Shown: positions 12,309-12,911 of the stretch, piece by piece | How positions within the stretch are numbered: the stretch's first letter is position 1 | Layout of the letters: each line of letters opens with the position of its first letter | Source: Gemmata obscuriglobus | Lineage (GTDB): Bacteria; Planctomycetota; Planctomycetia; Gemmatales; Gemmataceae | Assembly (NCBI RefSeq): GCF_008065095.1 | Contig: NZ_CP042911.1 | Location: forward strand, 8,100,001 to 8,132,000 | Length of the DNA stretch: 32,000 nucleotides | Direction of reading: 5' to 3' | Notes under the pieces: generated by a model | Seen by the model: the letters and a program-made list of their open reading frames with translations, nothing else | Told to the model about the DNA's origin: nothing | Databases searched by the model: none | Program-made: the position numbers and the translations under genes

Positions 12309-12911
12309 ATGCCCCCTGAAATTACCGCACCCGATGTAACGTTCCTTTGGCCGGACGGCACCCCCGTTCGGCTGTCGCAATTCTTCACGTCTGATGCCTT
12401 GCTGCTCGTGTTCCTCCGGCACCTGGCCTGAATCCCTTGTAATGCCCACCTCGGTGAGGTGGAAACCGCCCGTGACCGGCTCGCGGCACGCGGGTGCTCC
12501 GTGCTCGTCGTGGCCCAAGCCGAACCCGAGGTGCTGAAACGCTACCTGTCCCGCCAAGCACGATCTGTGCCGATCGTGTGCGATCCCACTCGCGGCGCGT
12601 ACGCCGCGTTCGGGCTGGGGCGGACGACTTGGCTCACGTTCTTCAAACCGGCGGTGCTGTGGGGGTATTTCCGCGGCATGCTGCGCGGGTACGGGGTGAA
12701 GAAGCCCTACGTGGGCGAGGACGTGCTCCAGCTCGGCGGCGACTTCATCCTCTCGCGCGACCGTCACGTGATCTTCGCACACCGCTCAGCCGACCCGACC
12801 GATCGACCGGCGGTTGCCGATTTGATTGCGGCCCTGCCATCGGTTCCGCCGATCCCTCATGATCGGCCGCCCGATGCGCCCCGCGTTGACGGACCGGCGC
12901 GGGGAGAATAA
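12309..12911 (+). CDS. predicted selenoprotein: AhpC/TSA-type (PRX-like2 / PRXL2-SelU-like) thioredoxin-fold protein with U-x-x-C active site (Sec at codon 41, TGA 12429-12431)
   Basis: Track ORFs 12219..12431 and 12459..12911 are in the same frame, separated only by TGA plus 9 sense codons. Read-through gives ...LLLVFLRHLA-U-IPCNAHLGEVETARDRLAARGCSVLVVAQ...QLGGDFILSRDRHVIFAHRSADPTDRP. The TGA sits at the first Cys position of the CxxC redox motif, and a SECIS-like hairpin follows. ATG 12309 has GGAG 11 nt upstream. Confidence 0.7.
12446..12462 (+). promoter_or_regulatory. candidate bacterial SECIS element (upper stem-loop)
   Basis: CCACCUC-GGU-GAGGUGG is a perfect 7-bp stem with a 3-nt apical loop containing G-G-U, 17 nt in total. 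It starts 14 nt after the in-frame UGA. Confidence 0.6.

What the first reader, a model, noticed from the sequence alone, without database searches (positions are those of the whole stretch)
12309..12911. In-frame UGA at the redox-Cys position of a thioredoxin-fold gene: predicted U-x-x-C selenoprotein with a SECIS-like hairpin
The ORF track shows two ORFs in the same frame, 12219..12431 (ending in TGA) and 12459..12911. Reading through TGA 12429-12431 gives one 200-codon protein from ATG 12309: MPPEITAPDVTFLWPDGTPVRLSQFFTSDALLLVFLRHLA-[TGA]-IPCNAHLGEVETARDRLAARGCSVLVVAQ...VLQLGGDFILSRDRHVIFAHRSADPTDRP. The layout is a hydrophobic strand, then F-x-R-H-x-x-[C]-x-x-C, then a helix. That is the active site of AhpC/TSA-type (PRX-like2, PRXL2/SelU-like) thioredoxin-fold proteins. 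The TGA sits exactly where the first, nucleophilic Cys of CxxC belongs. Fourteen nt downstream is a perfect 17-nt stem-loop, CCACCUC-GGU-GAGGUGG (12446-12462), with G-G-U in the apical loop. This is close to the geometry known for the minimal E. coli fdhF SECIS: a small upper stem-loop about 11 nt 3' of the UGA with G/U in the loop. A chance nonsense mutation would not be expected both to hit that codon and to be followed by such a hairpin. Automated callers would annotate this locus as two fragments or a pseudogene.
Basis: partly seen in the sequence, partly recalled or inferred. Interest (0 to 1): 0.8.

Follow-up and report, generated by a model that had tools for sequence, protein, structure and literature searches.

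The report
Mis-annotated selenocysteine redox gene in Gemmata
This is a real selenoprotein gene: a 200-codon thioredoxin-fold redox protein of Gemmata obscuriglobus whose active-site selenocysteine is encoded by an in-frame UGA followed by a small conserved recoding hairpin; it belongs to a known class, but GenBank records cut it to a 150-residue fragment.

Summary

- **The gene.** ATG 12309 to stop 12911 is one gene, interrupted only by TGA 12429-12431. The read-through protein passes NCBIfam NF040769 "SelL-related redox protein" (212 bits, cut-off 120) and Pfam AhpC-TSA_2.
- **Cys column.** Cys-containing homologues carry RHLA-C-xx-C at exactly the TGA column.
- **Conservation of the TGA.** All 47 other related loci from genomes and metagenomes (31-94% protein identity) have TGA at that column. 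In the 43 distinct sequences analysed, window included, the frame is open on both sides and shows coding-type variation.
- **The hairpin.** The 17-nt hairpin 12446-12462 meets every criterion of the published bacterial SECIS consensus. It is 97% paired across 43 distinct sequences, with one compensatory pair (C:G 26, G:C 13). Stem synonymous sites are frozen while the third loop base drifts. Two of three Cys forms examined have lost it.
- **Sec machinery.** Published work lists selA, selB, selC and selD in G. obscuriglobus.
- **Context.** The gene sits in a conserved cluster with a di-haem cytochrome c peroxidase and a DUF480 protein.
- **Verdict.** This is a genuine U-x-x-C selenoprotein and a new member of a known kind. 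UxxC Prx-like selenoproteins are already among the commonest bacterial selenoproteins. Its main practical value is correcting a widespread annotation error. Interest is modest.

The parts
12309..12911 (+). Complete coding sequence of the SelL-related redox selenoprotein: 40 codons, UGA (Sec41), 159 codons, stop TAA 12909-12911.
   Evidence: Translation. NCBIfam NF040769 at 212 bits against a cut-off of 120. Pfam PF13911, PF00578 and PF08534 all above cut-off. The N-terminus aligns with full-length Cys homologues starting MPSTP.. and MRPGD... Variation by codon position is the same upstream and downstream of the TGA.
12429..12431 (+). In-frame UGA, read as selenocysteine 41, the attacking residue of the U-x-x-C redox motif.
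   Evidence: It aligns with the invariant first Cys of RH..C..C in Cys homologues. TGA sits at this column in all 47 other related loci.
12438..12440 (+). TGT, Cys44, the presumed resolving cysteine of U-I-P-C.
   Evidence: Invariant column C44 in alignment A1. It aligns with the peroxidatic Cys of BCP/PrxQ 2cx3 in the profile search.
12446..12462 (+). SECIS mini-hairpin. Stem 12446-12452 pairs with 12456-12462 (7 bp); the apical loop GGU is 12453-12455. It encodes (A)-H-L-G-E-V.
   Evidence: 97.3% of cells are paired in 43 distinct sequences. The outer pair is C:G in 26 and G:C in 13, and 0 of 500 shuffles reach the observed values. Stem synonymous sites are frozen: Leu CTC 40/43 against a 37.5% background, Glu GAG 43/43 against 55%, Val GTG 41/42 against 40%. 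The third loop base varies freely. It meets all bSECIS consensus criteria quoted in PMC13188914. It is lost in the Cys forms L010 and L011.
12459..12461 (+). GTG (Val51) inside the 3' arm of the hairpin. GenBank records use it as the false start codon of the 150-residue call.
   Evidence: ORF 12459-12911 corresponds to P0001, that is QEG31991.1/VTS11341.1 'hypothetical protein GobsT_68400'.
12986..14515 (+). Downstream neighbour: a di-haem cytochrome c peroxidase (CCP_MauG family) with an N-terminal signal-like hydrophobic segment. Probably in the same operon.
   Evidence: Pfam PF03150 at 164 bits. It lies immediately downstream in 26 related loci, including the Cys-form loci L009-L012. No terminator-like site was found between the two genes.
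14484..15365 (+). DUF480 protein, third member of the conserved cluster. Coordinates are the maximal ORF; the true start is probably further downstream.
   Evidence: Pfam PF04337 at 154 bits. It is found downstream in 14 related loci and in Frigoriglobus tundricola.
12209..12224 (+). Terminator-like stem followed by a T-rich tail, between the upstream DUF1559 gene and the selenoprotein gene. It may mark the start of a new transcription unit.
   Evidence: Consensus scan. This is weak evidence: 3 sites found against 2.4 expected.

Best explanation
Window 12309-12911 is one intact gene of Gemmata obscuriglobus. It encodes a 200-residue thioredoxin-fold protein of the Prx-like2 / SelL-related type whose active site is Sec41-Ile-Pro-Cys44.

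**Recoding (inferred from comparative data).** Translation starts at ATG 12309. At UGA 12429-12431, the selenocysteine-specific elongation factor SelB, carrying Sec-tRNA(Sec), is recruited by the 17-nt hairpin 12446-12462, which has loop GGU 21 nt after the UGA. Sec is inserted instead of terminating.

**Protein chemistry (inferred by analogy).** In the model of a Cys homologue, the residue at this position caps the N-terminus of the first helix after a buried strand. This is the position of the attacking Cys in CxxC oxidoreductases. The likely mechanism has three steps:
1. The selenolate attacks an oxidised substrate, either a peroxide or endoperoxide as in PRXL2B, or a disulfide.
2. Cys44 resolves the intermediate into a selenenylsulfide.
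3. A thioredoxin-type reductant regenerates the enzyme.

**Context.** The gene is probably co-transcribed with a periplasmic di-haem cytochrome c peroxidase and a DUF480 protein. This points to a role in peroxide and oxidative-stress defence.

**What is shown.** The gene structure, the Cys/Sec column, conservation of the TGA, RNA-level constraint on the hairpin, family membership and synteny.

**What is inferred.** SelB binding, actual selenium incorporation, the substrate and the reductant.
For: - **Gene structure.** The in-frame TGA has a single frame open on both sides.
- **Family.** NF040769 at 212 bits against a cut-off of 120. PF13911 at 59 bits against 27.
- **Cys column.** Cys homologues read RHLACAACNAHLGEV and similar, with C at the TGA column.
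- **TGA conservation.** Eight genome loci (Gemmata algarum, Gemmata sp. IIL30, a Frigoriglobus MAG and others) and 39 metagenome loci all have TGA at that column. Protein identity goes down to 43%, and to 31% for L053.
- **Intact frames.** In 43 distinct sequences, 139-163 codons are open after the TGA in 42 (L049 is cut by its contig end at 68). Forty codons are open before it in 40 of them.
- **Coding signal upstream.** Entropy by codon position upstream is 0.81/0.58/1.26. Downstream it is 0.71/0.54/1.23.
- **Hairpin.** 97.3% of cells are paired, with C:G/G:C covariation (26/13) and U.G wobbles. No shuffle of 500 reaches the observed pairing or covariation, and slid registers give 38-66% pairing.
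- **Synonymous sites.** Stem sites are frozen relative to the genes' own codon usage, while the loop site drifts.
- **Cys forms.** L010 and L011 have lost the hairpin. F. tundricola (L009, TGT) still keeps it.
- **SECIS consensus.** Loop of 3-9 nt, stem of 4-16 bp, G in the first two loop positions, 16-37 nt from the UGA, and free energy of -7.5 kcal/mol or lower. All are met: 3 nt, 7 bp, GG, 21 nt, -11.5 kcal/mol.
- **Sec machinery.** PMC4807772 states that G. obscuriglobus has the full Sec-insertion set and gives gene ids for selA, selB, selC and selD.
- **Structure.** The model of Cys homologue P0002 has pLDDT 87.5, with C41 at the N-cap of helix 42-53. The best PDB match is human PRXL2B, entry 9usa, with a target-normalised TM-score of 0.82.
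- **Synteny.** A CCP_MauG gene follows in 26 loci and DUF480 in 14.
Against: - No direct evidence of selenium incorporation exists here.
It rests on one paper, whose S3 Table tRNA count lists SeC(p) = 0 for G. obscuriglobus even though its S8 Table gives a selC gene id.
- No Rfam SECIS family matches.
- On the single sequence the hairpin is not more stable than shuffled controls.
- The hairpin overlaps a conserved peptide (HLGEV), so part of its conservation is protein-level. Only one stem pair shows a true double change.
- The sequences are phylogenetically related, so the shuffle statistics overstate independence.
- The biochemical function and the link to the neighbouring peroxidase are inferred only from homology and gene order.
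Confidence: 0.92

Rival explanations
1. The UGA terminates translation. The functional product is the 150-residue C-terminal protein started at GTG 12459, as GenBank annotates it. The upstream 40 codons are a separate small ORF or untranslated leader.
For: Three GenBank records call it this way, and more than 100 database homologues are called as 130-150-residue proteins. GTG 12459 is a possible start codon.
Against: The 150-residue product would lack the first strands and the whole redox motif of the thioredoxin fold. The upstream 40 codons are homologous to the N-termini of full-length Cys proteins and evolve under coding constraint in the same frame. The 'start' GTG is simply the conserved Val codon of HLGEV, inside the hairpin. 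The uniform truncation of database entries is what gene callers produce at a Sec codon.
Confidence: 0.03
2. The UGA is read through, but another amino acid is inserted. Candidates are Cys delivered by a SelB-dependent tRNA, or Trp by near-cognate suppression. In that case the protein is not a selenoprotein.
For: Cys occupies this column in homologues. Selenium incorporation was not tested. From general knowledge, SelB-dependent Cys insertion at UGA has been described in a few bacteria.
Against: Published work reports selA and selD, as well as selB and selC, in G. obscuriglobus. These would be unnecessary for Cys insertion. If Cys were intended, a single-base change to TGT or TGC would suffice, as in F. 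tundricola. Yet TGA is kept in all 47 related loci.
Confidence: 0.03
3. This is a pseudogene: a chance nonsense mutation at the active-site Cys codon, with a chance hairpin downstream.
For: TGT or TGC to TGA is a single-base change. On the single sequence the hairpin is not statistically exceptional.
Against: The same TGA is present in all 47 related loci at 31-94% identity. The 43 distinct sequences analysed have no further frame disruption and show coding-type substitution patterns on both sides. The hairpin's synonymous sites are under selection.
Confidence: 0.01

Closest known systems
NCBIfam NF040769, SelL-related redox protein (bacterial Prx-like2 proteins with an RH-x-x-[C/U]-x-x-C motif)
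   Same: The window protein scores 212 bits against a cut-off of 120 over the full profile (2-172 of 173). This is higher than the Cys forms P0012 (198), P0002 (184) and P0029 (164), and higher than distant Sec forms (151-168). It has the same length, motif and fold.
   Different: None found; it is a member. GenBank records of G. obscuriglobus do not annotate it as such: they call it a 150/159-residue hypothetical protein. I could not see NCBI's own description of the model, or whether RefSeq marks this gene as a selenoprotein.
Prx-like thiol:disulfide oxidoreductase selenoproteins (UxxC/UxxU) and AhpC/TSA_2 (PF13911, UxxS) selenoproteins, listed in prokaryotic selenoproteome surveys (PMC2398784, PMC9312934, PMC13188914)
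   Same: A thioredoxin-fold, Prx-like domain. Sec is at the first position of a U-x-x-[C/S/U] redox motif. A bacterial SECIS lies inside the coding region just after the UGA. Cys homologues are abundant. Function is predicted, not tested.
   Different: The reviews do not list NF040769 by accession. The PF13911 entry they list has UxxS, not UxxC. Most documented hosts are anaerobic Deltaproteobacteria or marine metagenomes, whereas here the hosts are Gemmataceae and soil or freshwater metagenomes.
Eukaryotic selenoprotein L (SelL), a Prx-like protein with a UxxU diselenide motif (Shchedrina et al. 2007, as cited in PMC2397514)
   Same: A Prx-like thioredoxin fold with a Sec-containing x-x motif at the same active-site position. 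NCBI's family name states the relationship.
   Different: SelL has two Sec residues (UxxU) that form a diselenide, and it uses a eukaryotic 3'-UTR SECIS. This protein has one Sec and one Cys (UxxC), so it would form a selenenylsulfide, and it has a coding-region bacterial hairpin. The SelL paper itself was not available, and no direct sequence comparison was made.
Human PRXL2B (FAM213B), prostamide/prostaglandin F synthase, PDB 9usa; PRX-like2 / vertebrate SelU family
   Same: It is the best solved-structure match of the modelled Cys homologue: E = 5e-11, TM-score 0.82 normalised to the target, rmsd 2.5 A. The CxxC (C44/C47) sits at the equivalent helix N-terminus. From general knowledge, it is a thioredoxin-dependent reductase of an endoperoxide.
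   Different: Sequence identity is only 17%. It is a eukaryotic enzyme with a lipid substrate, and the human protein is a Cys form. No evidence bears on the bacterial substrate.
E. coli fdhF-type bacterial SECIS and the bSECIS consensus model
   Same: A stem-loop immediately 3' of the UGA inside the ORF, with a small apical loop starting with G-G/U. All four consensus criteria are met (for the criteria; for the values).
   Different: It is much smaller than the full fdhF element. Only a 7-bp stem with a 3-nt loop is conserved, and no bulged U or conserved lower stem is seen. The stem starts 14 nt after the UGA. No Rfam SECIS model matches.

Membership tests
NCBIfam NF040769 SelL-related redox protein | Whole-protein HMM score above the curated cut-off (120 bits), over the full model length | tested here: met
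   212.1 bits, E = 4e-63, profile positions 2-172 of 173, with U41 entered as C.
NCBIfam NF040769 SelL-related redox protein | Redox motif RH-x-x-[C/U]-x-x-C after a hydrophobic strand | tested here: met
   The window reads FLRHLA-U-IPC. R37, H38, C41 and C44 are invariant in A1. The motif recurs as RH[LF][GA]CxxC in 80 of the 150 best cluster representatives.
Bacterial selenoprotein gene (Sec-UGA recoding) | In-frame UGA aligned with Cys in homologues | tested here: met
   TGT in L009, TGC in L010 and L011, at the same codon.
Bacterial selenoprotein gene (Sec-UGA recoding) | UGA conserved in orthologues, with intact reading frames under coding selection on both sides | tested here: met
   47 of 47 related loci carry the TGA. 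Frames are open in the 43 distinct sequences analysed, and codon-position periodicity is present.
Bacterial selenoprotein gene (Sec-UGA recoding) | SECIS stem-loop fitting the bSECIS consensus: loop of 3-9 nt, stem of 4-16 bp, G in the first two loop positions, 16-37 nt from UGA to loop, free energy of -7.5 kcal/mol or lower | tested here: met
   Loop GGU, 7 bp, 21 nt, -11.5 kcal/mol. Criteria are quoted from PMC13188914.
Bacterial selenoprotein gene (Sec-UGA recoding) | Host genome encodes selA, selB, selC (tRNA-Sec) and selD | not testable with these tools
   None of them lies in the 32-kb window: there is no tRNA, and the 10 of its larger ORFs that were scanned gave no Sec-gene match. The whole genome could not be searched. 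PMC4807772, main text and S8 Table, lists all four genes for G. obscuriglobus.
Bacterial selenoprotein gene (Sec-UGA recoding) | Selenium actually incorporated at the UGA position | not testable with these tools
   This needs 75Se labelling or mass spectrometry.
Selenoprotein L proper (SelL) | UxxU motif: two Sec residues forming a diselenide | tested here: not met
   There is only one in-frame TGA. The second position is TGT (Cys44) here, and Cys in 46 of the 47 other loci; L042 has Tyr.
Peroxiredoxin (Prx/BCP, PxxxTxxC) | A Thr/Ser-x-x-Cys(peroxidatic) motif, and a score above family cut-offs | tested here: not met
   The Thr/Ser position is occupied by Sec, and the Pro of PxxxT is absent (alignment to 2cx3). 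The NCBIfam BCP model scores 15.8 bits against a cut-off of 140. The generic Pfam AhpC-TSA domain does pass (46 against 26), so this is Prx-like and not a Prx.
PRX-like2 / Pfam AhpC-TSA_2 (PF13911) | Domain score above the gathering threshold, and fold similarity to a family member | tested here: met
   59.2 bits against 27. The AF2 model of homologue P0002 matches human PRXL2B 9usa best, with target-normalised TM-score 0.82. The model is of a 61%-identical Cys homologue, not of the window protein itself.
Rfam bacterial SECIS families | Covariance-model match | tested here: not met
   No match at gathering score in the window, and none to a SECIS family at E up to 10 in 12250-12650. From general knowledge, Rfam's bacterial SECIS models are specific to particular clades and genes, so this does not weigh against function.

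The most novel reading that the evidence does not exclude
Three linked ideas go beyond the gene being a selenoprotein.

1. In Gemmataceae the Sec form of the SelL-related protein is the ancestral and near-universal state, in largely aerobic soil and freshwater bacteria.
2. It works as one part of a fixed three-gene peroxide-handling module: selenoprotein, di-haem cytochrome c peroxidase, DUF480.
3. The 17-nt mini-SECIS has locked the protein motif H-L-G-E-V in place, so an RNA constraint dictates the protein sequence next to the active site.
Probability: 0.3. Interest if true: 0.4.

Novelty: new member of a known kind. Interest (0 to 1): 0.3.

Why it matters
- **Annotation.** GenBank records truncate the gene to a catalytically dead 150-residue fragment. 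About 115 of the 120 closest database homologues, and 59 of the 150 best 50%-identity cluster representatives, look truncated at the same point. Any survey based on called proteins would therefore undercount Sec use in this family and in Planctomycetes.
- **A tool for finding more.** The very small, strongly conserved hairpin is a clean signature for finding these genes.
- **A lead on function.** The conserved pairing with a cytochrome c peroxidase and DUF480 gives a testable lead on the function of a family with no characterised bacterial member.
- **Limits.** It does not change the understanding of Sec recoding or reveal a new class of protein.

Tried and rejected
- **Rfam.** Searches at gathering and at permissive thresholds gave no SECIS match.
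- **Single-sequence folding.** Significance was null, z = -0.04.
- **Extended lower stem.** A 16-pair SECIS suggested by some loci was tested. The outer pairs are only about 50% paired and do no better than a slid register, so only the 7-bp hairpin is claimed.
- **SelL paper.** The original paper, PMC1955791, is not held. The phrase 'SelL-related redox protein' occurs in no searchable paper.
- **Earlier surveys.** Zhang et al. 2006 (PMC1794560) does not mention Gemmata.
- **Other recoded genes in the window.** A scan for other in-frame TGA candidates with high GC3 on both sides gave 16 junctions. None had a redox-type motif, and they look like ordinary gene ends or non-coding frames. The scan's own GC3 threshold also missed the real gene, so it is not a sensitive test.
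- **Solved structures by sequence.** Only weak BCP/PrxQ matches were found, E = 0.004.
- **Rejected explanations.** The pseudogene, split-gene and alternative-decoding explanations were considered and rejected, for the reasons given under the rival explanations.
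Full report
**1. The observation**

- ORF 12219-12431 ends in TGA 12429-12431.
- ORF 12459-12911 is in the same frame.
- Reading from ATG 12309 gives MPPEITAPDVTFLWPDGTPVRLSQFFTSDALLLVFLRHLA-[TGA]-IPCNAHLGEVETARD... and ends at TAA 12909-12911.
- The stem-loop CCACCTC-GGT-GAGGTGG occupies 12446-12462, 14 nt after the UGA.

Taken alone, the hairpin is only mildly unusual.
- The 66-nt region is no more stable than dinucleotide shuffles (z = -0.04).
- Perfect 7-bp hairpins occur 1.25 times per kb on this strand.
- About 1.4% of positions, and 6 of 310 TGA triplets, have one starting 8-23 nt downstream.

The single sequence therefore does not prove anything. The comparison with relatives does.

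**2. Organism and gene family**

The 150-residue downstream ORF is 99% identical to GobsT_68400 of Gemmata obscuriglobus. That protein is called 'hypothetical protein' of 150 or 159 residues in three GenBank records. The window is 68.75% G+C.

With residue 41 entered as Cys, the read-through protein gives these scores:

| Model | Score (bits) | Cut-off (bits) |
|---|---|---|
| NCBIfam NF040769 'SelL-related redox protein' | 212 | 120 |
| Pfam AhpC-TSA_2 | 59 | 27 |
| Pfam AhpC-TSA | 46 | 26 |
| Pfam Redoxin | 35.5 | 26.6 |
| NCBIfam BCP peroxiredoxin model | 15.8 | 140 |

The protein passes the first four and fails the last.

An AlphaFold model of the 61%-identical Cys homologue P0002 has pLDDT 87.5 and pTM 0.81. 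It places the first Cys at the N-cap of helix 42-53, right after buried strand 30-35. Its best solved-structure match is human PRXL2B, prostamide/prostaglandin F synthase (9usa, C44S/C47S mutant, target-normalised TM-score 0.82). BCP/PrxQ peroxiredoxins follow.

In a profile alignment to BCP 2cx3, Sec41 takes the place of the Thr/Ser of the peroxiredoxin T-x-x-C motif. Cys44 takes the place of the peroxidatic Cys. The protein is therefore a CxxC-type Prx-like protein, not a peroxiredoxin.

**3. Is the TGA translated?**

Full-length homologues have Cys at exactly this column: P0012 of Frigoriglobus tundricola (RHLACAACNAHLGEV), P0002, P0029 and P0034.

About 115 of the 120 closest database proteins are 130-160 residues long and cover only the part after the TGA. 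This is the footprint gene callers leave at a Sec codon.

Going to the DNA gave two sets of related loci:

| Source | Loci | Protein identity to query | TGA at the same codon |
|---|---|---|---|
| Genomes (Gemmata algarum, Gemmata sp. IIL30, a Frigoriglobus MAG, a MAG labelled Singulisphaera, other Planctomycetia) | 8 | 65-94% | 8 of 8 |
| Metagenome contigs covering the region | 39 | 43-74%, plus L053 at 31% | 39 of 39 |

The genome loci also show conserved protein sequence on both sides of the TGA.

In 43 distinct sequences, the window included, the frame stays open for 139-163 codons after the TGA in 42 of them. L049 is cut by its contig end at 68 codons. The frame is open for 40 codons before the TGA in 40 of them, and shorter in L013, L020 and L050.

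Variation by codon position upstream of the TGA is 0.81/0.58/1.26 bits for positions 1/2/3. Downstream it is 0.71/0.54/1.23. The 40 upstream codons are therefore under the same protein-coding selection, in the same frame.

These results exclude a pseudogene and make a split gene implausible. Orthologous TGA/Cys-codon alternation occurs within one genus: an uncultured Frigoriglobus (L003) has TGA and F. tundricola (L009) has TGT.

**4. The hairpin**

In 43 distinct 54-nt segments aligned without gaps (A2), RNAalifold predicts only the 7-bp stem, columns 18-24 with 28-34.
- 97.3% of cells are paired, against 38-66% in slid registers. None of 500 shuffles reaches the observed pairing or covariation.
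- The outer pair is C:G in 26 sequences and G:C in 13. This is a true double change: an Ala third position on one side, and the first base of the codon after Val on the other.
- Another pair shows C:G in 37 sequences and U:G in 5.

Because the stem encodes H-L-G-E-V, I tested synonymous sites against the codon usage of the same genes:

| Site | At the hairpin | Background in the same genes |
|---|---|---|
| Leu CTC (stem) | 40/43 | 37.5% |
| Glu GAG (stem) | 43/43 | 55% |
| Val GTG (stem) | 41/42 | 40% |
| Gly third base (apical loop) | T 13, C 21, G 3, A 4 | varies like background |

That is RNA-level selection on the stem. The loop always begins with G, followed by G or U.

The published bacterial SECIS consensus requires four things (PMC13188914). 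All are met:

| Criterion | Required | Here |
|---|---|---|
| Apical loop | 3-9 nt | 3 nt |
| Upper stem | 4-16 bp | 7 bp |
| G in the first two loop positions | at least one | GG |
| Distance from UGA to loop | 16-37 nt | 21 nt |
| Free energy | -7.5 kcal/mol or lower | -11.5 kcal/mol |

Further points:
- Of the Cys forms, L010 (HMGEV) and L011 (HLGTV) have lost the hairpin. F. tundricola (TGT) still carries it unchanged, consistent with a recent Sec-to-Cys switch.
- The 31%-identical L053 has TGA at the same column. By eye, it has a different stem of 8 pairs with one mismatch and a G-containing loop at a similar distance. This was not tested further.
- A longer lower stem is not supported.
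- No Rfam family matches.
- The GTG that GenBank uses as the start codon (12459) is the Val codon in the 3' arm of the hairpin.

**5. Sec machinery**

The window contains no tRNA. None of the 10 larger ORFs I scanned against Pfam is a Sec gene. I could not search the whole genome.

[quoted passage not shown] Its S8 Table gives IMG gene ids for selA, selB, selC and selD of G. obscuriglobus. One caveat: the tRNA count in the same paper's S3 Table lists SeC(p) = 0 for this organism.

**6. Context and likely function**

- **Upstream.** A DUF1559/N-methyl pilin-like gene (10875-12050), followed by a terminator-like site at 12209-12224.
- **Downstream, after 74 nt.** A di-haem cytochrome c peroxidase (12986-14515, PF03150 at 164 bits) with a signal-like N-terminus. 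A DUF480 protein follows.
- **Conservation of the order.** The peroxidase gene follows the redox gene in 26 related loci, including the Cys forms L009-L012. DUF480 follows in 14.
- **Location of the protein.** By inspection, the selenoprotein has no signal peptide, so it is probably cytoplasmic.

I infer a thioredoxin-recycled selenol/thiol oxidoreductase acting on a peroxide or disulfide substrate, expressed together with a periplasmic peroxidase as part of oxidative-stress defence. This functional step is inference from homology (PRXL2B, Prx-like proteins) and gene order. Nothing here tests it.

**7. How common the Sec form is**

A full HMMER scan of 1.84 billion cluster representatives with the Cys form P0012 found 1465 relatives at E of 0.001 or lower. 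The best 150 split as follows:
- 80 carry RH..CxxC.
- 59 are short calls that begin just after the motif, and are probably Sec forms.
- 11 are other.

Distant Sec forms (43-51% identity) still pass NF040769 at 151-168 bits. L053, which is cut by its contig end, scores 115 bits, just under the cut-off. Sec use is therefore widespread in this family and is systematically hidden by gene calling.

**8. Comparison with what is known, and novelty**

- UxxC Prx-like selenoproteins have been catalogued since the Sargasso Sea and GOS surveys (Prx-like 1-3, PMC2398784).
- Current reviews list 'Prx-like thiol:disulfide oxidoreductase (UxxC/UxxU)' and an AhpC-TSA_2 family with UxxS (PMC9312934, PMC13188914).
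- SelL itself is a UxxU protein of aquatic eukaryotes and marine bacteria (PMC2397514). This protein is UxxC, so it is SelL-related and not SelL.
- NF040769 is a curated NCBI model.
- I found no paper naming this family by that accession, none using the phrase 'SelL-related redox protein', and none identifying the Gemmata gene as a selenoprotein.

I therefore file it as a new member of a known kind. It is a sound, well-supported selenoprotein prediction and an annotation correction, not a surprise to a specialist.

Confidence that this is a genuine Sec-encoding gene with a functional SECIS is about 0.92. Confidence in the specific biochemical role is much lower.

Noticed in passing
window 12459-12461: The GTG used as the start codon of the annotated 150-residue protein is the Val codon in the 3' arm of the SECIS hairpin. 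Gene callers start the truncated ORF inside the recoding signal.
   Followed up: yes
window 12309-15365; L001-L026, L031, L033, L040, L041, L009-L012: The gene order SelL-related redox protein, then di-haem cytochrome c peroxidase (CCP_MauG), then DUF480 is conserved across Gemmataceae-like loci. It is kept in both Sec and Cys forms. In L016, L019 and L028, DUF480 follows the redox gene directly.
   Followed up: partly
L009 3001-3579 (Frigoriglobus tundricola CP053452.2): This Cys form (TGT) still carries the intact hairpin CCACCTC-GGC-GAGGTGG. It looks like a 'fossil' SECIS after a recent Sec-to-Cys change. An uncultured Frigoriglobus (L003) has TGA.
   Followed up: partly
L053 1048-1530: A remote family member (31% identity; NF040769 at 115 bits; cut by the contig end) has TGA at the same column (FLRHYG-U-SFC). 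Its downstream stem-loop is different (CAACAGCA-UGCCG-UGCAGUUG). This would mean the structure is conserved without the sequence being conserved.
   Followed up: partly
L042, Sec motif region: This one locus reads RHLG-U-VP-Y, with TAC in place of the resolving Cys codon. It is either a sequencing error or a UxxY variant.
   Followed up: no
window 10875-12050 (+): A DUF1559 protein with an N-terminal prepilin-type methylation motif (PF07596 and PF07963), a family that is greatly expanded in Planctomycetes. It is conserved upstream only in Gemmata algarum (L001) and weakly in L021.
   Followed up: partly
window 12209-12224 (+): A terminator-like stem with a T-rich tail lies about 85 nt upstream of ATG 12309. 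No such site lies between the selenoprotein and peroxidase genes.
   Followed up: no
window 16164-17129 (+), 18321-21602 (-), 8770-10158 (+), 6248-7783 (-): Other genes in the window: a XerC/D-type tyrosine recombinase, a GlnE-like glutamine synthetase adenylyltransferase (1093 aa), a protein with two FHA domains, and a protein containing a VanZ domain. ORFs 4653-6842, 9707-10333 and 15393-16160 have no Pfam match.
   Followed up: no
PMC4807772 supplements (S3 against S8 Table): The paper's tRNA count lists no tRNA-Sec for G. obscuriglobus (SeC(p) = 0), yet its S8 Table gives a selC gene id (642220927). This small inconsistency is worth checking on the genome.
   Followed up: no
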